From: an uncultured virus (IMG/VR IMGVR_UViG_3300012347_000246)
Taxonomy: Duplodnaviria > Heunggongvirae > Uroviricota > Caudoviricetes
Direction: 5' to 3' (one strand)
DNA: 60,525 bases
IMG/VR virus record: IMGVR_UViG_3300012347_000246
Part shown: piece after piece, positions 7,956 through 57,218 of the stretch
How positions within the stretch are numbered: position 1 is the stretch's first letter
Layout: each line of letters starts with the position of its first letter
Made by a program: the position numbers and the translations under genes
The notes under the pieces: generated by a model
What the model was told of the DNA's origin: nothing
Databases searched by the model: none
What the model saw: the letters and a program-made list of their open reading frames with translations, nothing else

Positions 7956-8624
7956 TTAGTTGTTACTAATAGACACAGTTACAGGAACTGTTGCATTGCT
8001 TGCTGTTGCAAAAGCAGGCTTGCTACCAGAATAATCAGCCCAACGGTAAGAATTACCGTCTGCATCATATACTAAGTTCTCAGTGATTTTAGCAATCGAG
8101 AATGTGCTGTCATCTGCAAAAGTTGCAGTGATAGTCATTTCGCCTGCTGCTGCTGGAGCCGCAGTGGTCACCAATTTGCAATTGCTTGTGCCGTCAGCAT
8201 TGGTTACACGGAATGAGCGTGAGCCAGCTTGCTTAACAATATCTGCTGCTTTACCAACAGATCCGCCAGTTACCCATGCATTCGCATTGATTGCGTTTAA
8301 CACTGCACCACTTGTTAAAGTAGTTGCAAAAGTGTTAGCCGGGGTAGTGTTAGCACCTGTAATAGTAAATGTCGGAGCAGATGTATATCCAGAGCCAGCA
8401 CTTGTAATTGTAATACCGGCTACGTTACCAATTGTAACGTTACCAATAATTACTGTACCGGTAGCAGTAGAACCACCTGCAACTTGTGGTGCACCAAATG
8501 TTACCACAGCGTTTGCAAAGTATCCTTCGCCTTGAGTACCTACTGTAGCTGTTGCTACGCCTTCACCACCAACTCCGTCAGTGTTAAATGAACCGAAAAA
8601 TGTCTTTTTTAATGGACGTCCCAT
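7956..8624 (-). CDS. Virion structural protein (possible head/neck decoration)
   Basis: 222 aa starting MGRPLKK; ITITSAGSGYTSAPTFTITG module; strong AAGGAG RBS; own late promoter and terminator. Confidence 0.7.
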   Translation of the reverse strand: MGRPLKKTFFGSFNTDGVGGEGVATATVGTQGEGYFANAVVTFGAPQVAGGSTATGTVIIGNVTIGNVAGITITSAGSGYTSAPTFTITGANTTPANTFATTLTSGAVLNAINANAWVTGGSVGKAADIVKQAGSRSFRVTNADGTSNCKLVTTAAPAAAGEMTITATFADDSTFSIAKITENLVYDADGNSYRWADYSGSKPAFATASNATVPVTVSISNN

Positions 8625-8716
8625 GTTGTTTCTCCTTAATGTATTTGGCGTTCTAGGCCTACGCAGTTGGGTAACTGCATAAACTCTCAGTTAAGAGTGA
8701 ACATTATATTTATTTA
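8625..8716 (-). promoter_or_regulatory. Late promoter (TAAATAAATA) with structured 5' leader
   Basis: TAAATA at 8707-8716, followed by hairpins ACTCT/AGAGT and TATGCAGTT/AACTGCGTA, then AAGGAG. Confidence 0.6.
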
Positions 8717-9591
8717 GGTTTAACCTTTTCACCTTTAATAAGAGCAACAAAATGACTCCAAAATGGATTATTAGTAATATGTACCCCGTGGTTTACAATT
8801 TTTCTATCTGGATGAAGCAGTGGAGTGACTTCATGAAGTTTAGTCCAATGTACACCTGGCTTGTGATGATGCTCTTGGTGTAGTCCTGCATTAAATCCAA
8901 AAATGTTGTACCATTTGCTGTATATACCGATACTGTCTTGTGTAGTATCGCCTCGGTTATTAAGAGCGCCCCAATGTTCACCGTAGCTGTTTGCATTATT
9001 AACAAAGAAAGCCAGTGCGTATACTAGTGCAGTCCATAACCCAAACCAAGGATTAATTGCAACCACTGACAATATGTAAAGTCTAAATGCCCACAACTCT
9101 CTGTTATATCTTTTATTAAACTCATCAATTTGAATACGTCGAGGAGACGCAATAAAGAAGTTCTTGATTTGGAAAAATACTGTCATTCTAAAACAGTAGA
9201 CCCAAAAATTTACCAGCTCACCATCTCTGCGGCCCCGATAAACACTAACTGGATCTTTTGTTGCACCAGTGTGATCGGGTTTATCGTTAACATATCTATG
9301 GTGTAACAAGTGAGTATTTTTCCATGCGTTTTGCGGAATGCCTGTTACTGCACTCAAAAATAATTCATAAATTCTGTTTAACGATGAATTCTTAAACGTA
9401 GTCCAGTGGGTGTGGTGATGTAATGAACTATTCTGACAGTTTACAATAAACCAAATTTGGAAAAAACTTATAACTAAGATCCAACTAAATGCCGGAGTCC
9501 AAATTGCTAATGTGTAAGGAAGGCAAAATAAAAAGACTGCATATAAGATAAGGTATATGTCTTTTGGTGAATAACGGAATATTGATTGCAT
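8710..9591 (-). CDS. Membrane fatty-acid desaturase family protein (auxiliary metabolic gene)
   Basis: Three His boxes (HHHTH, HLLHH, HQEHH) with hydrophobic transmembrane segments. ATG at 9591 preferred over the track start at 9624, which overlaps the terminator. Confidence 0.85.
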   Translation of the reverse strand: MQSIFRYSPKDIYLILYAVFLFCLPYTLAIWTPAFSWILVISFFQIWFIVNCQNSSLHHHTHWTTFKNSSLNRIYELFLSAVTGIPQNAWKNTHLLHHRYVNDKPDHTGATKDPVSVYRGRRDGELVNFWVYCFRMTVFFQIKNFFIASPRRIQIDEFNKRYNRELWAFRLYILSVVAINPWFGLWTALVYALAFFVNNANSYGEHWGALNNRGDTTQDSIGIYSKWYNIFGFNAGLHQEHHHKPGVHWTKLHEVTPLLHPDRKIVNHGVHITNNPFWSHFVALIKGEKVKPK

Positions 9592-9622
9592 AGTGTATTT
9601 ACTAGTAAAATTTTTAATCAAC

Positions 9623-9675
9623 AAAAAAGCCCCAATTAAGGGGCTTTTTGAGTAACAGCATCTTGCGATGCTGTT
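9623..9675 (-). terminator. Double hairpin/terminator after the major capsid gene
   Basis: AACAGCATC-GCAA-GATGCTGTT (9654-9675), then AAAAAGCCCC-TTAATT-GGGGCTTTTTT (9623-9649). Confidence 0.85.
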
Positions 9676-19238: not shown

Positions 19239-19453
19239 TACTAGACTACGAAGATAGCGTTTCATTGATTGAGCAACAGGAACGCGAATCAAAAGCCATC
19301 AAAGAAGAACTGCTTAGAATATGTTGGTATATGAGGGGTGGGATATCCTATGATGATGCTGCATTGCTAAGTCAGCAAGAGCGTACTATCATTGATAAGA
19401 TCATTAAGGATAATATGGAAACTACTAAGAAATCAGGATTGCCATTCTTTTGA
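19235..19453 (+). CDS. gp51: gp51-like hub assembly protein, probably expressed as a -1 frameshift extension of gp26
   Basis: ICWYMRGGISYDDAALLSQQER motif; weak TTG start with no RBS; lies in the -1 frame after T TTT TTC. Confidence 0.65.
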   Translation: MILDYEDSVSLIEQQERESKAIKEELLRICWYMRGGISYDDAALLSQQERTIIDKIIKDNMETTKKSGLPFF

Positions 19454-19472
19454 TATTAGAAGTAATCCTTAA

Positions 19473-19517
19473 AGATGTACTACGTACATCTGTTGTTATC
19501 GCTATCGCTCAACAACA
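19473..19517. terminator. Twin hairpins at the convergence point of two transcription units
   Basis: AGATGTAC-TAC-GTACATCT (19473-91) and TGTTGTT-ATCGCTATCGCTC-AACAACA (19491-19517). Confidence 0.5.
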
Positions 19518-19569
19518 TTATTAAATCAAGATAGTAAACTAAAAATTAATTTACTAACTTCATTTAATT

Positions 19570-19980
19570 AACACGCTTAAGCGAAACTAGTTTCATCCAG
19601 ATTCCTTAGTCACACTTTGCCCGCACAGGGCAAAAATGATTTCATCCGAGTTCGGAATAGTCATTAGCGTTAAAGCTATAAAGTATTTCTACTTAACACA
19701 GGCGGTTGTCCGGTACCTGTTCACTTTGTTCTTATATCCAACGGCAGCTTAAAGTATATACGCTAACATATACGTTAAACCTGCTACATCGCTGTAGCGT
19801 CTTTTTAGCCTTTTTAACTCTATTCAAATAGCAAAACCGCGGCATTTAGAAGCGATCGTCGTCCTGTTAAGGATAGTTGCTAAGTGCTCTTGTACGGCGA
19901 AGAGTCTTCCATCCCTGCGACCCGAGGTCCAGTTATGCGGGCATCCGTTTTTTGACCGATGCTAGTCGTATACCGTATGA
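19570..19980 (-). ncRNA. Candidate large structured non-coding RNA (~410 nt), family unassigned
   Basis: No ORF in the track. About ten stems can be read, two with GNRA loops on the - strand (GCTACA-GCGA-TGTAGC; AAGTA-GAAA-TACTT), plus a three-way junction and two possible pseudoknots. Begins directly after the GIY-YIG stop codon. Confidence 0.65.
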
Positions 19981-20409
19981 TTAAATTTTGTTTATTATGT
20001 GGGAGCCATGGACACGGACTGATATTTGTCCGTTGTAATAATCTTTAGATTCAAGCACTTTGTGAGCAAATTGTTCTCTTGCCTCGATGTAGCTGCATTC
20101 TGCTTTACTTTTACAATAGAATAGGATTTCTCTTGTAAATTTGTCAGCACCTAATGCTTCAACATCTTTCTTTAGTTCATCGTTTGAGCCATAATATGTG
20201 CGCCAATCAGAATCCACTTTGCTGCGGATTTTCTTTTTCTTCTTGGTGCCGTTCTTGAGTTTTACTGTTTTAAGTGTTGTCTTAGAAAATTTTGCTAGTT
20301 TTTTGCCTATGTATTTGCGCCCTGATACTAGGTTGGTGATTAGATAAACGAACCCTATGCAATCTTCTGGTAGATTTTCGACCTGTGAGCTTTCAAATAA
20401 CCATGTCAT
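19981..20409 (-). CDS. Stand-alone GIY-YIG nuclease-family protein
   Basis: GFVYLITNLVSGRKYIGKK, later IEAREQF (Glu) and YYN (Asn); Lys-rich insert; 142 aa. Confidence 0.85.
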   Translation of the reverse strand: MTWLFESSQVENLPEDCIGFVYLITNLVSGRKYIGKKLAKFSKTTLKTVKLKNGTKKKKKIRSKVDSDWRTYYGSNDELKKDVEALGADKFTREILFYCKSKAECSYIEAREQFAHKVLESKDYYNGQISVRVHGSHIINKI

Positions 20410-20442
20410 GCGGAGTTTTATAAATTATCTATGTACCAGTAG

Positions 20443-21711
20443 TTATGCCTTTGTAATAGTTTCAAAATATTTTGCTATATCGTCTTGATCTAGCCAGTGC
20501 CATAATGAGAGTTTTTCGTATAGTTCGTTTGTATAGTGTTCGTTAGAGGGTTCTTGTAGTGCCTTGATGATTGCCTTGATTTCGCTGTCTATGTGTTCTT
20601 TAAATCTGTTTGGATCCCGCGGATTGCTGGGGCCCGGAAAGGGTTCTGAAAATTGCCAATGTTTATATTGAATTAATAATCTGTGCTTAATATCTTCGGG
20701 TAAATTTTGGATCTGCATAAACGCAGGACGCACTAAAATATTAGTCATAACGTCCACTTTACGATCCACACACCAACGATATAAATCGTCTAAGGTATGT
20801 ACACTTAAAGCACTAGGCACAGGACGTACTGTAACATAAACGTGTGCCTCTTTGCGATGTTTTAGGTAAGTTTCAATGTTATTTAGGACAGTTTCGTAGT
20901 CGGAGCCGCGCCTAATATAGTCATTTAGTGGGCCCATGCACTCTACACTAACACCTATATCAACGTGTCTGAATGCATTTAATTTCTCAATTAACGGCAC
21001 ATTCACTACAGTGCCGTTAGTAGTAAATCCTAAGTAGATGTCTGTTTTTCCGGCTAATAAAAGTCGGTCTATTAGTTCTTCGAACTTGGGATTTAGTAAT
21101 GGCTCGCCGCCGATTAAATGTACAAATTCTAGGTTTGGCGTGCTGCAAACGTAGTTTACAACGTTTTCCCATGCAGTATTATCATCAGTCCAGTTCATTC
21201 TAGCAGAGCCGCTAAACAGTCCTTGCTTGATTTGTTCTACAGCAATTTTGCTACTGGCCATTGGTGTACACATTCTGCAAGCTAGATTACATTCATTGCC
21301 CAAGCTGATGTGAAAGCTGTTAGGGCGCATTGTGCTATGCCCTAGATTGTCTTCTGAGTACTTAAAAGCAGCGTAATCCGGGCTACGTGCAAAGGATTCT
21401 TCGAACTTAATAGGATGTATGCGGCTCTTCAAATTCTCTTTTAAACGCTTGCTGCTAGACCCTAGCTCTTCTTCTTTGTAGCACATGGCGCATAGCGGCT
21501 CGCTGTTACCTGCGAGTTTGTTTAATCTAGCATTACGTTGATGCTCACTGTTGACCCAATCCTCAATGCTCATCGTGTGAACATTGTACTTGGCTGCTTC
21601 TGGGGTGCGAGTAATAGTGTTTGGCTGTGCCCCGCAAGAATGGTAGGATCCATCTGCATTAATATGCACTTCGGTCCACGGTATATTACAAAATACTTTA
21701 CTTACAGTCAC
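20443..21711 (-). CDS. Radical SAM protein with N-terminal SPASM/twitch-like domain
   Basis: CNLACRMC (CX3CX2C), GGEP and TTNGT; N-terminal CNIPW..ADGSYHSC..CAMCY. Confidence 0.9.
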   Translation of the reverse strand: MTVSKVFCNIPWTEVHINADGSYHSCGAQPNTITRTPEAAKYNVHTMSIEDWVNSEHQRNARLNKLAGNSEPLCAMCYKEEELGSSSKRLKENLKSRIHPIKFEESFARSPDYAAFKYSEDNLGHSTMRPNSFHISLGNECNLACRMCTPMASSKIAVEQIKQGLFSGSARMNWTDDNTAWENVVNYVCSTPNLEFVHLIGGEPLLNPKFEELIDRLLLAGKTDIYLGFTTNGTVVNVPLIEKLNAFRHVDIGVSVECMGPLNDYIRRGSDYETVLNNIETYLKHRKEAHVYVTVRPVPSALSVHTLDDLYRWCVDRKVDVMTNILVRPAFMQIQNLPEDIKHRLLIQYKHWQFSEPFPGPSNPRDPNRFKEHIDSEIKAIIKALQEPSNEHYTNELYEKLSLWHWLDQDDIAKYFETITKA

Positions 21712-22669
21712 GGCACTTTACCTTACATATTTCTAAGGGCATTGTTTCAATGCGAGTTATAAATTCGTCCCAAAGAGGATCAGTTAACACTTCGGCAATG
21801 GATCTAGTTTTAACGCTTAATCTATCTTTATACTTGTCGATAAAATCATTGTAGTAGTAGCCGCTGTTAAACCAAGGACATGGTTGTACAATGCCATCTA
21901 CATTGATAAACAACTCTTTTTTCCACTGCAAACATTTGGCCCACTTATGCCCGTCAAATTTTATTGCTGGGATCCGTATTTCTAAACCTCGGCTTAATGT
22001 GGATGTATGCTTTTCGTACTGACTTGTGGCGCTAACATATTCGTCAGACGGCTTTAGCAAATCAGCTGCATCAACAGCATACACACCGTCAAACTTTGAG
22101 CTTTTAACTGTTTGGAACGTATCAGCACCAAGGGCTTTGGCTACGTCTCTTATTTCACGAATCTTGTTTTCGTTAAAGTTAAAGTAGATGGTACTCCAGT
22201 TAATCCTAACTGGGCCTGCTGCACGTAATGCACGTAGGCCTTCAGTAATGCTGTTCCAATCGCTGTTTACTCTGTACTTCTCGTTGCTGGCCTGGTCCCA
22301 CCCGTCGATACTAAACGTAACTTTGTCATCGGAGTTTAGCATACCGCCGAGTTCAGTCCACCACTCGGGCTTTTTATAGCTGCCATTGGTAACGATCTCA
22401 ACTGTGGTTTGAGTGTTGGATTTAATGTATTTGATGATTTGCAAAAACTGTGTAGCGTATATAGGATCGCCTATGTCTCCGCAGAACAGGATTCTCTTAA
22501 CATTGTTTTTTAACAAGCTAATAGGAAATGCTGTTTGAAACTGAACTAAACTAAATTCCCTATTAAGGCTATCTTGGTCTAGCTCAGTGCGAGGACAGCG
22601 AGGGCACTTTAAAGTACACTTGCTGCTCAGTTCAATATGCAGTTCTTCGAGGTTAAACAATCTCGACAT
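21698..22669 (-). CDS. Radical SAM protein with C-terminal twitch-like domain
   Basis: CTLKCPRC, CGDIGDP, TNGS and FSIDG; C-terminal C..INVDGIVQPC..CKVKC. Start 22669 or 22693. Confidence 0.9.
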   Translation of the reverse strand: MSRLFNLEELHIELSSKCTLKCPRCPRTELDQDSLNREFSLVQFQTAFPISLLKNNVKRILFCGDIGDPIYATQFLQIIKYIKSNTQTTVEIVTNGSYKKPEWWTELGGMLNSDDKVTFSIDGWDQASNEKYRVNSDWNSITEGLRALRAAGPVRINWSTIYFNFNENKIREIRDVAKALGADTFQTVKSSKFDGVYAVDAADLLKPSDEYVSATSQYEKHTSTLSRGLEIRIPAIKFDGHKWAKCLQWKKELFINVDGIVQPCPWFNSGYYYNDFIDKYKDRLSVKTRSIAEVLTDPLWDEFITRIETMPLEICKVKCRDCK

Positions 22670-24422
22670 CGGTGTTATAGCTTGTGAATCCATTTTCCTT
22701 AACCACGTGCAACGTATTGTTTACACGCCCTGCTAGTTCGTCTTTGTGCGACACTAGCCAAATACTGCGATTGTTTTCTCTGCTCATCTTTTTAAGAATA
22801 GCAAGACTGTTTTCAACGCCCGAGCTATCCATGCCCGAGTCAACTAGCTCGTCAATGAACAGCAAGTTAATGGGTTGATACAAACTTTCCCACACATCAC
22901 GGAACGCCCAGCTCAGTGACAGAATCAATCTGTTACGTTCTCCGCGACTCAAGTTATCAAAGTCCAAGTCGCGACCCAATTCTGTAATTGCAACAGTTAA
23001 GTCATTGTTGAATTTAACAGTATGAGGAAGTCCGATGCGATCTAAGTATTGACCAAGTCGTGCGTTTAGATAGCTTAAGTTTTGATCAATGATACGTTTA
23101 CGGATAAAGCTGTCTTTGTTTGTTAGCAGCTTAAGCAAGAACTCCTGGTGGTCCTTGAGCAACGTGTAATCATTGATTTTATCAAAGCTAATTTCTTCAA
23201 CACCTTGCGTTTGCATTTCGGTAATTTGATCTGCATACGGATCTGTTTCTGCTTGCTTGTTGGTTAGCTGTTGCAGGATACTTGCCATGCTTGAACGGTG
23301 CTCGAATGCATCGCTTTCTTGATCGTAATATACTTGTGGTTGCGGACCAATTTCGCCTAGTGCAGCTAGAGACTCAGTGTGTTCGGTCCACTGTGTGTTT
23401 GTTGCTAGAGCTTGTAATGCAGCTTCTTGCAACGCCTTCTTCTTTTCTTCTAGTAACGCTTCTTGCTTTTCATCATGGAACGCTTGCCCGCAGCTATGGC
23501 ATGTGTGATTTTCTAAGCTAGCAATCTCTGTTTTAAGAGTTTCGATTAGCTTTTGCTCACGCTTTTCATCAAGTTCGCATTGTCGGATCCAACGATTAAG
23601 TTCGTTGGTGTGCTTGATTTTTGCGTTGTACTCGGATAACGCTTTATGCGCCAACAGTTCGGCTTCAATATCAAGTTTATCTAGCTCGTCGTAGGCACCC
23701 AGTAGCTTGTCCAAATCTTCATCGTGCTTTGTCTTCCACATAGATTGTCTACGTTTCAAGTTTTCGATTTGCTCTTGGATACGCTTGTTTGCATCTCCTA
23801 CAGCTTTAATGCGGAACTCTTCTTGTGTGATTAAATCTTTTGTGGACTTAGCTTGTTCCTTGAGTGCATCGGCTTTCTCACTTAGCATAGTGATACCAAG
23901 TAGCTGCTCAATGATAGTGCGTTGATCGTTGGCTTTTAAACTTAAGAACGGCTCAGTGTAAGTGTTAAGAGCCACGACGTGCTTAAACATATCGTGGCTC
24001 ATTCCCAACATACGTTCGATCTCTGCTTGAGTTTCTCGACTATCGCCTTGCGCCTCGTCTGTGATTTCACGTTCAATGCCGCCAACCAAGAACTTCATTA
24101 GGTTGGGCTTACGTCCACGCTCAATGCGATAGTCTACCCCGTCTTTGTTAAAGTCGATGGTAACCATCATGTTCTTACCGTTTGTTTTATTAATCAGGTT
24201 ATCCTTCTTAATCTTAGTAAGAGCTTCTCCATAAAGAGCATAGCTAAGTGCATTAATAATTGTAGTCTTGCCTGTGCCGTTACGGGCGCCGCTGTCATCC
24301 CCGCCTAAGTCTAAGTTTTCACCTAGTACCAACGTAAGGTCTTTGCGGTCAAAGTTGACAGCCTGCGTAGCATTACCCACGCTCATAAAGTTTTTAACAG
24401 TAATATCTCGAATTTTAAACAT
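22653..24422 (-). CDS. gp46: Recombination endonuclease ATPase subunit (Rad50/SbcC-like)
   Basis: Walker A GARNGTGKT, zinc hook CHSC, signature LSRGE, Walker B LLFIDE, and SH motif. Confidence 0.95.
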   Translation of the reverse strand: MFKIRDITVKNFMSVGNATQAVNFDRKDLTLVLGENLDLGGDDSGARNGTGKTTIINALSYALYGEALTKIKKDNLINKTNGKNMMVTIDFNKDGVDYRIERGRKPNLMKFLVGGIEREITDEAQGDSRETQAEIERMLGMSHDMFKHVVALNTYTEPFLSLKANDQRTIIEQLLGITMLSEKADALKEQAKSTKDLITQEEFRIKAVGDANKRIQEQIENLKRRQSMWKTKHDEDLDKLLGAYDELDKLDIEAELLAHKALSEYNAKIKHTNELNRWIRQCELDEKREQKLIETLKTEIASLENHTCHSCGQAFHDEKQEALLEEKKKALQEAALQALATNTQWTEHTESLAALGEIGPQPQVYYDQESDAFEHRSSMASILQQLTNKQAETDPYADQITEMQTQGVEEISFDKINDYTLLKDHQEFLLKLLTNKDSFIRKRIIDQNLSYLNARLGQYLDRIGLPHTVKFNNDLTVAITELGRDLDFDNLSRGERNRLILSLSWAFRDVWESLYQPINLLFIDELVDSGMDSSGVENSLAILKKMSRENNRSIWLVSHKDELAGRVNNTLHVVKENGFTSYNTDVEIV

Positions 24423-56866: not shown

Positions 56867-56891
56867 CATATAATTCACTTTCTAGTATACT
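56863..56891 (+). promoter_or_regulatory. Near-consensus sigma70 promoter
   Basis: TTGACA (56863-68), 17 bp spacer, TATACT (56886-91); ATG is 6 nt later. Confidence 0.8.
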
Positions 56892-56897
56892 TGCTAG

Positions 56898-57218
56898 ATG
56901 AGTGAATTATCTAATATTGTGGCCCAGGTTCGCGTGGCCACTGATTTTCAAACCAATAAACAAATCCTTAAAGAAAAGATCCAAACGGATCTGCATTTCG
57001 CATACAACGGTGGAATGTTTAAAGCAGACCCTGCCATTTACTCTTTTGTAATACTGTGGCAAGGTGATCAGGATGCGTTGTTTTTGGAAGATGTATACGG
57101 TACTCCAATCAAAATTGTGCAAAGAGAATTCGTTGACCTTTGCACACAGCACTATCAAAGAGCCATGAATGAATGGCATCAACAGTATGCAGAACTCCGA
57201 AAAATCCGCAAAGTCTAG
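56898..57218 (+). CDS. Hypothetical protein
   Basis: 106-aa ORF, first gene after the sigma70 promoter. Confidence 0.7.
   Translation: MSELSNIVAQVRVATDFQTNKQILKEKIQTDLHFAYNGGMFKADPAIYSFVILWQGDQDALFLEDVYGTPIKIVQREFVDLCTQHYQRAMNEWHQQYAELRKIRKV

What the first reader, a model, noticed from the sequence alone, without database searches (positions are those of the whole stretch)
19570..20409. Minimal GIY-YIG nuclease followed directly by a ~410-nt structured RNA: candidate nuclease-RNA system
Seen: this is the only long non-coding gap in a densely coding window, and it starts at the base after the nuclease stop. On the - strand it gives these stems: GCATC/GATGC (19941-62); CTG-GACC-TCG-GGTC-G-CAG; CTCTT/AAGAG (19887-904); a three-way junction closed by TAGCAA/TTGCTA (19829-82) holding TCCT/AGGA and GATCGC/GCGGTT; GCTACA-GCGA-TGTAGC (19783-98); GTATATG/TATATAC; ACAGGT/GCCTGT (19698-720); AAGTA-GAAA-TACTT (19681-94); TTTGCCC/GGGCAAA (19616-34). 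The GNRA loops and G-U pairs favour the - strand. The protein is only 142 aa and keeps GxY/YIG, Glu and Asn. It has no C-terminal DNA-binding domain but carries a very basic insert (KTVKLKNGTKKKKKIRSK). Established: GIY-YIG homing endonucleases such as I-TevI get specificity from C-terminal domains, whereas TnpB and IscB use an adjacent RNA. Inference: the protein and RNA may form a ribonucleoprotein in which the RNA scaffolds or guides the nuclease. Alternatively this is an independent large phage RNA of the GOLLD/ROOL type.
Basis: partly seen in the sequence, partly recalled or inferred. Interest (0 to 1): 0.9.

Follow-up and report, generated by a model that had tools for sequence, protein, structure and literature searches.

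The report
Large phage RNA beside a small nuclease
A real, highly folded RNA of about 500 bases, whose first third is an already catalogued RNA family of unknown function, sits just after a small DNA-cutting enzyme gene in a freshwater phage, but each occurs widely without the other, so they are probably neighbours and not a guided-nuclease pair.

Summary
The 527-nt gap at 19454-19980 is the only long non-coding stretch in the window. On the minus strand it encodes a structured RNA: 92 pairs in 18 helices, 69 with compensatory changes against 44.7 in shuffles (0 of 500).

The RNA is partly known. Bases 19967-19826 match Rfam RF01718 (Polynucleobacter-1) at 101.8 bits. The RNA runs on to about 19470. 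It has three pseudoknot or long-range pairings, an invariant 17-mer hairpin, and two unpaired heptamers that are always identical to each other.

The 142-aa protein is a complete stand-alone GIY-YIG domain. Its family also occurs in 520 cultured-phage records. None of the four neighbourhoods I inspected had the RNA downstream.

The RNA also occurs without this nuclease. It follows a PD-(D/E)XK nuclease or other genes in some phages. In sporadic Burkholderiales islands it sits beside DUF6641 and often a short tyrosine recombinase.

The RNP or guide model is therefore not supported. The RNA's function is still unknown. I propose a trans-acting folded RNA that presents twin recognition heptamers.

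The parts
19981..20409 (-). 142-aa stand-alone GIY-YIG nuclease (SegE-type domain; 'T4-like GC 213', often mislabelled NAD synthetase), with a basic beta-hairpin at residues 40-66
   Evidence: Pfam PF19835, E 3.6e-34, full profile. phrog_447. Invariant Y22, Y33, G35, K37, R93, E109, N126. AlphaFold2 model pLDDT 83.4. The best fold matches are all GIY-YIG: I-TevI catalytic domain Z 7.9, PD-T4-3 Z 6.5, UvrC N-terminal domain Z 5.4, T4 EndoII Z 5.0.
19470..19977 (-). Whole structured RNA, about 508 nt, an extended Polynucleobacter-1-family RNA. The 5' pseudoknot arm starts 4 nt after the stop codon. The 3' end is inferred from the terminal hairpin.
   Evidence: Alignment A1. Structure test with 92 pairs in 18 helices. 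Profile hits in 64 of 68 nuclease loci that have 450 nt or more downstream. The ends are not mapped experimentally.
19826..19967 (-). 5' domain, matching Rfam RF01718 Polynucleobacter-1 (P1-P6: hairpins plus a three-way junction)
   Evidence: cmscan 101.8 bits, gathering score 37, model positions 1-141 of 141.
19893..19977 (-). Pseudoknot PK1: leader TACGG (19977-19973) pairs with the P3 loop CCGTA (19897-19893). It lies outside the Rfam model's structure.
   Evidence: 121 of 143 cells paired; up to 5 pair types per pair (helix 1). Also seen in bacterial copies as CTACCG/CGGTAG with CTACTG/CAGTAG variants (pairs 13-18 with 103-108).
19666..19764 (-). Long-range pairing PK3: the P8 loop AGCG (19764-19761) pairs with CGCT (19669-19666)
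   Evidence: 138 of 140 cells paired; all 4 pairs have changes on both sides (helix 12). Drawn as 'pseudoknot?' UAGCRU/YRCUR in the 2010 supplement.
19699..19719 (-). Core hairpin P10 carrying the near-invariant GGTACCGGACAACCGCC (19717-19701)
   Evidence: Invariant or nearly invariant columns in 35 sequences. A1 columns 350-352 with 364-366 are invariant in 35 of 35. The bacterial counterpart is GGAGACNGCGAAACCGCC.
19641..19651 (-). R1: ACTC plus the heptamer GGATGAA (heptamer at 19647-19641), unpaired
   Evidence: The heptamer equals R2's at all 7 positions in 151 unique phage RNAs, with one exception at one position. Four or more positions vary and there are at least 10 variants. The best other mutual-information partner is 0.43 bits or less, against 0.91-1.0 for R2.
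19616..19634 (-). Hairpin P12 (TTTGCCC/GGGCAAA) between R1 and R2
   Evidence: 234 of 245 cells paired. Present in every one of 155 RNAs with the upstream core, apart from 3 cut by contig ends and the divergent L105.
19592..19602 (-). R2: ATCT plus the heptamer GGATGAA (heptamer at 19598-19592), unpaired
   Evidence: As for R1. Bacterial copies keep the twin block, for example ATCGAAAG twice or ACCAAAAG twice.
19517..19591 (-). Linker of variable length and sequence between R2 and the 3' hairpins
   Evidence: A1 columns 540-630 vary in length and sequence. The same is seen in bacterial copies.
19492..19516 (-). P13: a 6-bp stem, tandem G-A, a 2-bp GC stem and a GNRA-like loop (consensus TGAGCGnnAGCGAAA)
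   Evidence: Inner pairs 64 of 66 cells, with GC to AU and CG to UA changes (helix 17). The outer stem covaries by eye. The motif is also present downstream of bacterial copies.
19473..19491 (-). P14 terminal hairpin, the likely 3' end. On the + strand it scores as a terminator for the convergent gene that ends at 19453.
   Evidence: 169 of 175 cells paired; 8 of 8 pairs have changes on both sides (helix 18). Terminator-like on the + strand.
19681..19694 (-). Small hairpin AAGTA-GAAA-TACTT, inside an insertion that is not conserved
   Evidence: Present only in the window and L002; other insertions occupy this place in L005, L039, L040 and L045.

Best explanation
Two separate genes lie end to end at the tail of a leftward (minus-strand) operon of a T4-like freshwater phage.

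The first gene encodes a stand-alone GIY-YIG nuclease. Its family is common in non-enteric T4-like phages.

The second is a structured RNA of about 508 nt (19977 to about 19470). It belongs to the Polynucleobacter-1 family: Rfam RF01718 models only its first 142 nt.

Shown:
- The RNA fold is under selection on the minus strand.
- The RNA is modular. Its 5' domain can be swapped for a second type. It has a constant 3' domain and a pair of 3' hairpins.
- It is carried by several kinds of mobile element, with and without this nuclease.

Inferred:
- In this phage the RNA is transcribed with, or processed from, the 3' end of the operon. In bacterial islands it has its own promoter.
- It acts in trans as a folded RNA.
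- The two unpaired, always identical heptamers (R1, R2) that flank hairpin P12 are recognition elements. They would engage two copies of one partner: a repeated or dimeric nucleic acid, or a protein. The rest of the RNA would be the scaffold.

My confidence differs by part: about 0.9 for the family assignment, about 0.75 for independence from the nuclease, and about 0.3 for the trans-acting twin-site mechanism.
For: Family: RF01718 at 101.8 bits. The 2010 supplement's drawing already extends to the GGUACCGG..CCGCC core and a 'pseudoknot?'.

Fold:
- 92 pairs, 92.9% of cells paired against 76.8% in shuffles.
- 69 pairs changed on both sides against 44.7 (0 of 500 shuffles).
- Slid controls 0.05-0.10.
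- Bacterial copies fold alike: 100 predicted pairs, 39 compensatory.

Independence:
- RNA-first scan. Of 77 loci with more than 800 nt upstream, 66 have the GIY-YIG gene adjacent, 5 have it 1.0-1.3 kb away, and 6 lack it.
- Three of those six carry a 172-173-aa gene instead. L109's matches Pfam PDDEXK_15 at E 2.5e-29.
- Genes unrelated to nucleases sit between the GIY-YIG gene and the RNA in other loci, and the RNA then follows the last ORF.
- I judged 26 bacterial-type loci to carry the RNA. Of these, 25 have a divergent DUF6641 gene upstream, about 10 have a tyrosine recombinase of about 190 aa downstream, and none has a GIY-YIG gene. No bacterial neighbour has a homologue in the phage loci.
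- In bacteria the RNA is sporadic: 2 of 151 sampled genomes of one family score above the cut-off.
- The nuclease family is in 520 cultured-phage records. Four of four inspected neighbourhoods lack the RNA.
- Pairwise divergence of nuclease and RNA correlates weakly (Spearman 0.13). Each correlates better with gp46 (0.32 and 0.40; 44 loci).

Twin heptamers:
- Identical in 151 unique RNAs across at least 10 variants.
- No Watson-Crick partner in the RNA or in the 470 nt upstream.
- Always present.

RNA-library contigs from two studies cover 19610-19754, 19811-20055 and 19922-20233 with 0-1 mismatches.
Against: - No experiment shows the transcript, its ends or its strand. The RNA-library evidence consists of assembled contigs, which cannot exclude carried-over DNA.
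- In T4-like phages a small nuclease gene lies upstream in 74 of 74 loci with enough sequence. In 28 of 39 P-1-type loci the RNA model starts within 13 nt of the stop codon. A functional link in this lineage is therefore not excluded.
- No partner for the heptamers was found.
- Identical covariation of direct repeats is also what DNA sites bound by one protein, or recombination overlap regions, would show.
Confidence: 0.6

Rival explanations
1. Nuclease-RNA ribonucleoprotein. The RNA binds the domain-only GIY-YIG enzyme and supplies scaffold or target specificity, with the twin heptamers acting as guides.
For: - The RNA follows the stop codon directly.
- 71 of 77 RNA-first loci have the GIY-YIG gene upstream, and 3 more have another small nuclease gene.
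- The enzyme has no extra DNA-binding domain.
- The heptamers vary between lineages and have no partner in cis.
- RNA-library contigs bridge the ORF and the RNA.
- In bacteria the frequent neighbour is again a catalytic-domain-only DNA enzyme, a tyrosine recombinase of about 190 aa.
Against: - The RNA occurs without the nuclease in the 26 bacterial-type loci and in other phage contexts.
- The nuclease occurs without the RNA in 4 of 4 inspected cultured phages, out of 520 records that carry the family.
- Other genes can separate the two.
- The basic hairpin is a family trait also present where there is no RNA.
- Divergence of the two is weakly coupled, 0.13.
- The heptamers are only 7 nt, lie inside the RNA, and have ordinary rather than raised variability.
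- No reverse-complement match of the heptamer is enriched or clustered in cis.
Confidence: 0.1
2. Free-standing homing endonucleases parked next to their target. The GIY-YIG gene (or the PD-(D/E)XK gene) is a selfish nuclease gene. It would cut the highly conserved RNA gene of phages that lack it and spread by repair, as recalled for T4 SegB in the tRNA gene region.
For: - Two unrelated nuclease families occupy the same slot directly 5' of the RNA.
- Pfam, PHROG and PADLOC call the domain SegE or homing-endonuclease-like.
- The RNA gene has long invariant stretches that would suit a recognition site.
- Nuclease and RNA divergence are weakly coupled.
Against: - The nuclease is near-universal, not sporadic, in this phage group.
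- No T4-like locus with the RNA and no nuclease gene upstream was seen (0 of 74).
- The gene is about as conserved as its neighbours: mean pairwise identity 76% against 83% for the gp46 C-terminus.
- The family is a widely kept gene of cyanophages, at other genome positions.
- It lacks the DNA-binding domain typical of Seg and Tev enzymes.
Confidence: 0.12
3. A cis-acting 3' element of the operon: a processing, stabilising or termination module that protects or regulates the upstream mRNA.
For: - The RNA always follows the last ORF of the unit, whichever gene that is, and lies before a convergent gene.
- It ends in a hairpin shared with the convergent gene's terminator.
- RNA-library contigs bridge the ORF and the RNA.
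Against: - In bacteria it stands alone after a divergently oriented gene, so it is nobody's 3' UTR there.
- About 500 nt with three pseudoknot or long-range pairings, invariant loops and swappable domains is far more than a stabiliser needs.
- The 2010 guess of a 5' cis-regulator does not fit the window either.
Confidence: 0.08
4. A DNA-level element, such as a replication origin or primer region or a recombination site. The twin heptamers would be iterons or crossover cores read by one protein.
For: - Identical covariation of two direct repeats is typical of sites bound by one protein, or of overlap regions that must match.
- The neighbours are recombination and replication genes: gp46 in phages; tyrosine recombinase and a clamp-loader-like ATPase in bacteria.
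Against: - The pairing pattern is strand-specific, with 246 G-U cells, and fits RNA.
- No protein is shared between the phage and bacterial loci.
- No variant lacks the segment between the repeats.
- No sequence of the heptamer's upstream ORF covaries with it.
Confidence: 0.05

Closest known systems
Polynucleobacter-1 RNA motif (Rfam RF01718; Weinberg et al. 2010, PMC2864571)
   Same: - Bases 19967-19826 match the whole 141-position model at 101.8 bits.
- The habitat and taxa fit the paper's table row 'Burkholderiales, fresh water/estuary'.
- The supplement's consensus drawing already includes the core hairpin and a questioned pseudoknot.
   Different: - The RNA here is about 3.6 times longer than the Rfam model.
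- Not in the model, nor in the drawing as far as I could read it: PK1, PK2, the R1-P12-R2 module, and the linker with P13 and P14.
- It lies in lytic T4-like phages after an ORF and before a convergent gene. That is not a 5' UTR, whereas the paper's table marks 'cis-reg? y'.
- A second, non-RF01718 5' domain can replace the P-1 domain.
ROOL and GOLLD large RNAs of phages and prophages (recalled from the literature; Rfam families)
   Same: Works-like only: a large, intricately folded RNA of unknown function carried by phages and integrated elements, with no obligate protein gene beside it.
   Different: No Rfam match to either family at the gathering threshold or at E up to 1. The size and helices differ. 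No tRNA genes lie nearby: 0 in the 60.5-kb window.
   Same: A nuclease gene followed directly by a long structured RNA on the same strand.
   Different: - The enzyme is GIY-YIG, not RuvC or HNH.
- Nuclease and RNA each occur without the other.
- There is no terminal guide, and no transposon ends were seen.
- The candidate 'guide' is two internal 7-nt copies.
- I found no paper reporting an RNA-guided GIY-YIG enzyme. One search with three terms listed 6 of 7 papers; I read only titles and the starts of abstracts.
I-TevI catalytic domain, T4 endonuclease II and T4 Seg proteins (GIY-YIG nucleases of T4-type phages)
   Same: The fold and catalytic residues match: I-TevI 1ln0 Z 7.9, rmsd 2.8, 82 aligned; T4 EndoII 2wsh Z 5.0. 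The Pfam SegE_GIY-YIG match covers the whole profile. Like EndoII (134-residue chain in 2wsh) it is a small domain-only enzyme.
   Different: - No C-terminal DNA-binding domain as in I-TevI and the Seg proteins (recalled).
- A 27-residue basic beta-hairpin follows the YIG strand.
- No PDB chain matched by sequence at E up to 1.
- Orthology to EndoII was not shown.

Membership tests
Rfam RF01718 Polynucleobacter-1 RNA | Covariance-model score at or above the gathering score (37 bits) over the whole model | tested here: met
   101.8 bits, model positions 1-141 of 141, minus strand, 19826-19967.
Rfam RF01718 Polynucleobacter-1 RNA | The model's helices are kept by compensatory changes in relatives | tested here: met
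   P1, P2, P3, P4 and P6 have 4-6 pairs each with changes on both sides in 35 sequences. P5 is mostly invariant (helices 3-8).
Rfam RF01718 Polynucleobacter-1 RNA | 3' extension drawn in the 2010 supplement (GGUACCGG..CCGCC hairpin; UAGCRU/YRCUR 'pseudoknot?') | tested here: met
   Core hairpin at 19719-19699. PK3 at 19764-61 with 19669-66, 138 of 140 cells paired.
Rfam RF01718 Polynucleobacter-1 RNA | Location as a 5' cis-regulatory leader (the paper's table: 'cis-reg? y') | tested here: not met
   In the window and its phage relatives the RNA follows an ORF and faces a convergent gene. This is an inferred property in the paper, not part of the model.
GIY-YIG nuclease superfamily (Pfam PF19835 SegE_GIY-YIG) | Profile match above the curated cut-off | tested here: met
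   118.1 bits against a cut-off of 25; profile positions 1-123 of 123.
GIY-YIG nuclease superfamily (Pfam PF19835 SegE_GIY-YIG) | Catalytic set: Tyr of GIY, Tyr of YIG, Arg, Glu, Asn | tested here: met
   Y22, Y33, R93, E109 and N126 are invariant in 15 of 15 sequences. The assignment of these residues to catalytic roles is from recalled knowledge of the family.
GIY-YIG nuclease superfamily (Pfam PF19835 SegE_GIY-YIG) | GIY-YIG fold | tested here: met
   Model pLDDT 83.4. The top four structural matches are GIY-YIG domains, Z 7.9 to 5.0. Foldseek alone was weak (I-TevI probability 0.80, E 0.34).
Free-standing homing endonuclease (Seg type) | Sporadic presence among close relatives | tested here: not met
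   The GIY-YIG gene is upstream in 71 of 77 RNA-first loci and sits in a conserved slot in all 80 protein-first loci.
Free-standing homing endonuclease (Seg type) | Separate DNA-binding domain linked to the catalytic domain | tested here: not met
   142 aa, of which residues 3-129 are the catalytic-domain profile. No other Pfam domain was found.
RNA-guided nuclease systems (TnpB/IscB-type OMEGA) | Nuclease and RNA are obligately linked | tested here: not met
   The RNA occurs without the nuclease. The nuclease occurs without the RNA.
RNA-guided nuclease systems (TnpB/IscB-type OMEGA) | A variable guide segment at an end of the RNA that matches target DNA | tested here: inconclusive
   The only partnerless variable segments are two internal 7-nt copies. 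No target was found in cis or in the window. Trans targets could not be searched.
   cmscan of the window at gathering thresholds, and of 19400-20450 at E up to 1, gave only RF01718 plus two chance-level hits: snoZ173 (E 0.28) and cow-rumen-2 (E 0.26). ARAGORN found no tRNA or tmRNA.
Type III toxin-antitoxin (RNA antitoxin repeats) | Tandem RNA repeats next to the toxin gene | tested here: not met
   The RNA is a single non-repetitive unit, as seen in the alignment. No tandem-repeat program was run.

The most novel reading that the evidence does not exclude
The extended Polynucleobacter-1 RNA could be a portable specificity module for DNA enzymes that lack their own DNA-binding domains. Its twin, always identical heptamers would read a repeated or two-stranded target. 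They would direct whichever catalytic-domain-only enzyme is encoded beside the RNA: GIY-YIG or PD-(D/E)XK nucleases in T4-like phages, and tyrosine recombinases of about 190 aa in Burkholderiales islands. A matched 7-nt pair is exactly what a recombinase overlap region requires.
Probability: 0.06. Interest if true: 0.95.

Novelty: new variant of a known kind. Interest (0 to 1): 0.5.

Why it matters
Polynucleobacter-1 has sat in Rfam since 2010 as a 141-nt motif with no known function. In the library searched, only the paper that described it mentions it.

This window and its relatives show four new things:
- The motif is the head of an RNA of about 500 nt with three pseudoknot or long-range pairings.
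- A different 5' domain can replace the catalogued one.
- The RNA is carried by abundant lytic T4-like freshwater phages as well as by sporadic islands in Burkholderiales.
- It holds two unpaired heptamers that change together in every lineage.

That puts it among the large orphan RNAs of mobile elements, such as ROOL and GOLLD. It also gives a concrete, mutable handle, the heptamer pair, for finding its partner.

The work also corrects an attractive but unsupported idea, an RNA-guided GIY-YIG nuclease. And it flags the common 'NAD synthetase' label on this nuclease family as doubtful.

Tried and rejected
- **Close DNA relatives in cultured collections.** Window 19454-20442 against phages gave no match. 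A bacterial RNA copy against phages and plasmids gave no match.
- **Window's own assembly.** It is not held. The nearest record, G001, is an 11%-complete fragment with no RF01718 match, so it is uninformative.
- **PDB by sequence for the nuclease.** No hit at E up to 1.
- **Single-sequence folding.** Both strands fold better than shuffles, so this does not decide the strand.
- **Promoter search.** There is no sigma-70-like site ahead of the RNA on the minus strand apart from a weak one inside the ORF, and the count equals the shuffle mean. TATAAATA is absent from the whole window. The start of the transcript is therefore open.
- **Partner for the heptamers.**
  - The reverse complement is not clustered within about 3 kb in 71 loci.
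  - There is no covarying column in the RNA or in the 470 nt upstream.
  - GGATGAA occurs 7 times in the window against 4.9 expected.
- **Ideas considered and dropped for the heptamers.**
  - T4 gene-60-type bypass: no ORF enters the region, and the landing copy would be followed by the same stop codon.
  - Hammerhead core for P13: there is no third stem.
  - dif/Xer-like site, CsrA sites, a -10 box, and anticodon or codon mimicry: each fits only some variants.
  - Target-site duplication of a mini-element: no empty site in 155 RNAs.
- **DUF6641 as a hidden nuclease.** The model has pLDDT 83.7, but the best structural matches are coiled coils at Z 5.4 or less, which says nothing either way.
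- **PADLOC.** No known defence family for the bacterial neighbours, except an N-terminal PDC-S14 match in one 813-aa protein.
- **RNA-library cover.**
  - Parts of the stretch without contigs, and small-share runs, carry no weight.
  - Depth cannot rank expression.
- **Metagenome contigs.** Not scanned.
Full report
**1. What is there**

The window looks like part of a T4-like phage.
- It encodes a gp46-like SbcC/Rad50 protein, two radical-SAM/SPASM proteins, a T4 baseplate protein and a long tape-measure-like protein around the finding.
- ORF 19981-20409 (-) encodes 142 aa.
- A 527-nt stretch without a credible ORF follows it, 19454-19980.
- Then comes a convergent 72-aa gene that ends at 19453.
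- A greedy ORF tiling covers 97% of the window. It leaves only this gap and one at 56867-57168, and ORF 56898-57218 in fact covers that one.

**2. The RNA is real and partly known**

cmscan against Rfam 15 gives RF01718 (Polynucleobacter-1) at 19967-19826 on the minus strand: 101.8 bits against a gathering score of 37, over the whole model. Nothing else in Rfam matches the gap. There is no tRNA or tmRNA in the window.

I collected relatives in two ways.

*Protein-first.* At least 586 viral-contig stretches encode the 142-aa protein. The best 80 were kept as L001-L080.

*RNA-first.* I scanned for a 21-nt degenerate pattern of the core hairpin. Some contigs are shared with the first set.

A profile built from 35 aligned sequences (A1) finds the RNA downstream of the protein gene, on the same strand, in 64 of the 68 protein-first loci that have 450 nt or more downstream.

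Results:

| Measure | Observed | Control |
|---|---|---|
| Cells paired | 92.9% | 76.8% in shuffles |
| Pairs with changes on both sides | 69 | 44.7 (0 of 500 shuffles reach the observed value) |
| Covariation score | 0.430 | 0.161 in shuffles; 0.05-0.10 when partners are slid |

The structure was derived partly from these same sequences, which favours it somewhat. Per-helix counts of three to six pair types are not explained by that.

The AAGTA/TACTT hairpin is a local insertion.

**3. Anatomy, in window coordinates on the minus strand**

- PK1: leader 19977-73 with the P3 loop 19897-93.
- PK2: 19967-65 with 19956-54, crossing P1.
- P1-P6: the RF01718 domain.
- P7: 19798-83.
- P8: 19779-48.
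- PK3: the P8 loop 19764-61 with 19669-66.
- P9: 19726-23 with 19676-73. It encloses the core hairpin P10 (19719-19699), which carries the near-invariant GGTACCGGACAACCGCC.
- R1: 19651-41.
- P12 hairpin: 19634-16.
- R2: 19602-19592.
- Linker of variable length.
- P13: 19516-19492 (stem, tandem G-A, GC, GNRA-like loop).
- P14: 19491-73.

P13 and P14 also follow the bacterial copies, so I count them as part of the RNA.

The minus strand is supported by four lines:
- the Rfam hit;
- the constant orientation relative to the upstream ORF;
- 246 G-U cells, several at invariant G-U pairs;
- a drop to 86.8% pairing if the complement is read.

Folding energy alone does not separate the strands.

The 2010 paper that defined the motif lists it as 'RNA? 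y, cis-reg? y, Burkholderiales, fresh water/estuary'. I saw that table row. In the machine-read text of a supplementary figure, the consensus drawing already reaches the core hairpin and a questioned pseudoknot. I did not read the descriptive supplement text, if any exists. That paper is the only one in the library that names the motif or its accession.

**4. The twin heptamers**

In 151 unique phage RNAs the seven bases after ACTC (R1) equal the seven after ATCT (R2) at every position. There is one exception at one position. Four positions vary, and at least ten heptamers occur, among them GGATGAA, AGATGAA, GGATAAT, AGATAAT, GGATGAT, GCATAAT and GAATAAT.

- Mutual information between the copies is 0.91-1.0 bits at the three most variable positions and 0.44 at a fourth. 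The next best column, in the RNA or in the 470 nt upstream, reaches 0.43 at most.
- The same holds in bacterial copies with other sequences, such as ATCGAAAG twice and ACCAAAAG twice. There the first or last base sometimes differs.
- RNAs that are 85-88% identical elsewhere can differ in the heptamer. Its variability is ordinary, not raised.
- Every RNA with the upstream core has the whole R1-P12-R2 module, unless it is cut by a contig end or is the divergent L105.
- I found no partner. This remains unexplained.

**5. The protein**

- It matches the whole SegE_GIY-YIG profile.
- It keeps Y22, Y33, R93, E109 and N126.
- It folds as a GIY-YIG domain. The best structural matches are I-TevI Z 7.9, PD-T4-3 Z 6.5, UvrC Z 5.4 and T4 EndoII Z 5.0.
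- The basic stretch is modelled as a beta-hairpin, residues 40-66.
- tblastn finds the family in 520 cultured-phage records. 339 of them are Synechococcus phages. The gene is mostly labelled 'NAD synthetase' or 'hypothetical'.
- I inspected Methylophilales phage Melnitz, Acidovorax phage ACP17, Sinorhizobium phage phiN3 and Prochlorococcus phage P-RSM4. In each the gene is followed within 0-148 nt by the next gene, or by a tRNA in P-RSM4. No RF01718 match is present.
- A domain-only GIY-YIG enzyme with a basic hairpin is therefore normal for this family. It does not call for an RNA.

**6. Is the pair a unit?**

*For a link.*
- Of 77 RNA-first loci with more than 800 nt upstream, 66 have the gene directly upstream and 5 have it 1.0-1.3 kb away.
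- In 28 of 39 P-1-type loci the RNA model starts within 13 nt of the stop.
- Three of the six loci without the GIY-YIG gene carry a 172-173-aa gene in its place. L109's matches PDDEXK_15 at E 2.5e-29. I ran Pfam only on L109's protein; those of L094 and L151 look alike in their first residues. In L094 an RNase H gene also lies between that gene and the RNA.
- Hence a small nuclease gene lies upstream in all 74 T4-like contexts.

*Against a link.*
- The block gp46, 0-2 radical-SAM genes, nuclease, RNA, 0 to several genes, orf72, baseplate is conserved synteny. Co-occurrence inside this clade therefore carries little weight.
- In at least 11 protein-first loci the RNA lies 0.18-2.0 kb from the nuclease gene. 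In 8 of them I saw an ORF of 70 aa or more between the two. These include proteins of about 330 aa and about 270 aa with no Pfam match, and a small QSregVF_b protein. The RNA then follows the last ORF closely: a few nt after it in L059, while in L002 the ORF overlaps the RNA's start.
- L139 sits after an amidoligase-domain protein. L095 and L105 lie in other contexts.
- The genome-contig scan gave 36 pattern hits.
  - I judged 7 to be chance matches in coding sequence.
  - Three are phage-like contigs binned into MAGs (L206, L208, L211).
  - 26 are bacterial-type copies in Limnohabitans, Polynucleobacter, Comamonadaceae and other Burkholderiales-labelled genomes.
  - I ran 15 loci through Rfam: 13 bacterial-type, plus L206 and L211. 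All 15 scored 86-113 bits.
  - None of the 26 has the nuclease within 4 kb.
- Bacterial neighbours:
  - A divergent DUF6641 gene (phrog_31551) lies upstream in 25.
  - A tyrosine recombinase of about 190 aa, made of the catalytic domain alone, lies downstream in about 10.
  - Several have a clamp-loader-like ATPase.
  - L220 has an IS3 transposase and an 813-aa protein with a PDC-S14 N-terminus.
  - No homologue of these neighbours occurs in the phage loci.
- The RNA is single-copy in 4 of 5 genomes checked and present twice in one.
- It is above the cut-off in 2 of 151 sampled genomes of that bacterial family, one being the centre genome. So it is sporadic, as expected of a mobile element.
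- Across 44 loci, pairwise identities of nuclease and RNA correlate at 0.13. Nuclease with gp46 gives 0.32 and RNA with gp46 gives 0.40. The pairs are not independent, so this is only descriptive.

**7. Modularity**

In 25 of the 64 protein-first loci with an RNA hit, the profile matched only the 3' part. In 15 of these, about 150-220 nt separate the nuclease gene's stop codon from that 3' domain. Fourteen unique sequences of this interval align with each other and show covarying hairpins. Seven of these loci (L003, L018, L035, L036, L061, L062, L080) were run through Rfam: none scores for RF01718 at the gathering threshold, and L003 matches no family at E up to 1. So the catalogued motif is a replaceable head on a more constant body.

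**8. Expression**

Six of the ten runs listed are on record as RNA. I laid four of them.
- X1 has contigs at 19610-19754 (0 mismatches) and 19922-20233 (1 mismatch).
- X2 has one at 19811-20055 (0 mismatches).
- The last two of these contigs cross the stop codon.

These are assemblies, so strand, ends, level and DNA carry-over are all open. It is a weak hint that ORF and RNA can lie on one molecule.

**9. Reading**

The RNA is an autonomous gene of mobile elements. In this phage lineage it rides at the end of an operon whose last gene is usually the GIY-YIG nuclease.

I commit, at modest confidence, to a trans-acting folded RNA whose twin heptamers engage two copies of one partner. The rivals are an RNP with the nuclease, a homing-endonuclease and target arrangement, a cis 3' element, and a DNA-level site. 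They are set out with their tests in the Rival explanations section.

**10. Novelty and score**

- The family is known.
- The full extent, the 5'-leader and P1-crossing pseudoknots, the second head domain, the heptamer rule and the phage and island contexts are new as far as I could search.
- The attractive RNA-guided-nuclease idea is not supported.

Noticed in passing
window 8622-8698 (-): A second catalogued RNA of unknown function, Rfam RF02980 freshwater-2 (53.2 bits, gathering score 49.9). It lies 12 nt after the stop of ORF 8710-9624 (-), the same 'RNA right after an ORF' layout.
   Followed up: no
L003:3427-3625 and 13 further unique loci (L010, L018, L031, L033, L035, L036, L043, L044, L061, L062, L064, L074, L080): A second 5' domain of about 190 nt replaces the RF01718 domain in front of the same 3' domain. 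It is conserved and has covarying hairpins. The seven of these loci tested do not match RF01718 at the gathering threshold, and L003 matches no Rfam family at E up to 1.
   Followed up: partly
L203:4796-5374, L214:4840-5409, L225:5027-5593, L232:4796-5380, L220:113-682: Tyrosine recombinases of only 188-194 aa (catalytic domain alone; FimB/FimE-like size) lie downstream of the bacterial RNA copies. Four of these five loci also hold a clamp-loader-like ATPase and an unknown protein of about 270 aa.
   Followed up: partly
L220:1127-3568 (-) and L222 (813-aa ORF): An 813-aa gene sits between the RNA and the recombinase in Polynucleobacter rarus. Its first 148 residues match the PADLOC candidate defence family PDC-S14 at E 1.6e-51. 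The L222 ORF has the same length, but tblastn with the L220 protein did not detect it.
   Followed up: no
L205, L207, L231: Truncated 5' fragments of the bacterial RNA gene diverge from the full copies at three different points. Limnohabitans sp. Bal53 has one full and one truncated copy. This looks like decay or insertion within the RNA gene.
   Followed up: no
window 19912-19908 with about 19742-19738 (A1 columns 83-87 with 320-324): RNAalifold pairs the conserved GAYGG of the P-1 junction with CCGUU of the 3' domain. Only one-sided changes occur (C-G and U-G; G-U, G-C, A-U), so the pairing is untested.
   Followed up: no
window 20443-22693 (-): Two adjacent radical-SAM/SPASM genes lie between gp46 and the nuclease gene. 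Relatives have none, one or two of them, so this slot of the operon is variable.
   Followed up: no
whole window: There are no tRNA genes in 60.5 kb and no copy of the T4 late-promoter octamer TATAAATA, against 4.1 expected by chance.
   Followed up: no
cultured-phage records, e.g. NC_015283.1 PRSM4_212 and KR052482.1 PHIN3_314: Homologues of the 142-aa GIY-YIG protein are widely annotated as 'NAD synthetase'. The Pfam match, the catalytic residues and the fold all say nuclease, so the label looks like a propagated error.
   Followed up: partly
L105:2407-2559 (-): A partial, bacterial-type copy of the 3' domain lies next to a gene with a major-tropism-determinant N-terminal domain (Mtd_N) in an unrelated viral contig.
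   Followed up: no
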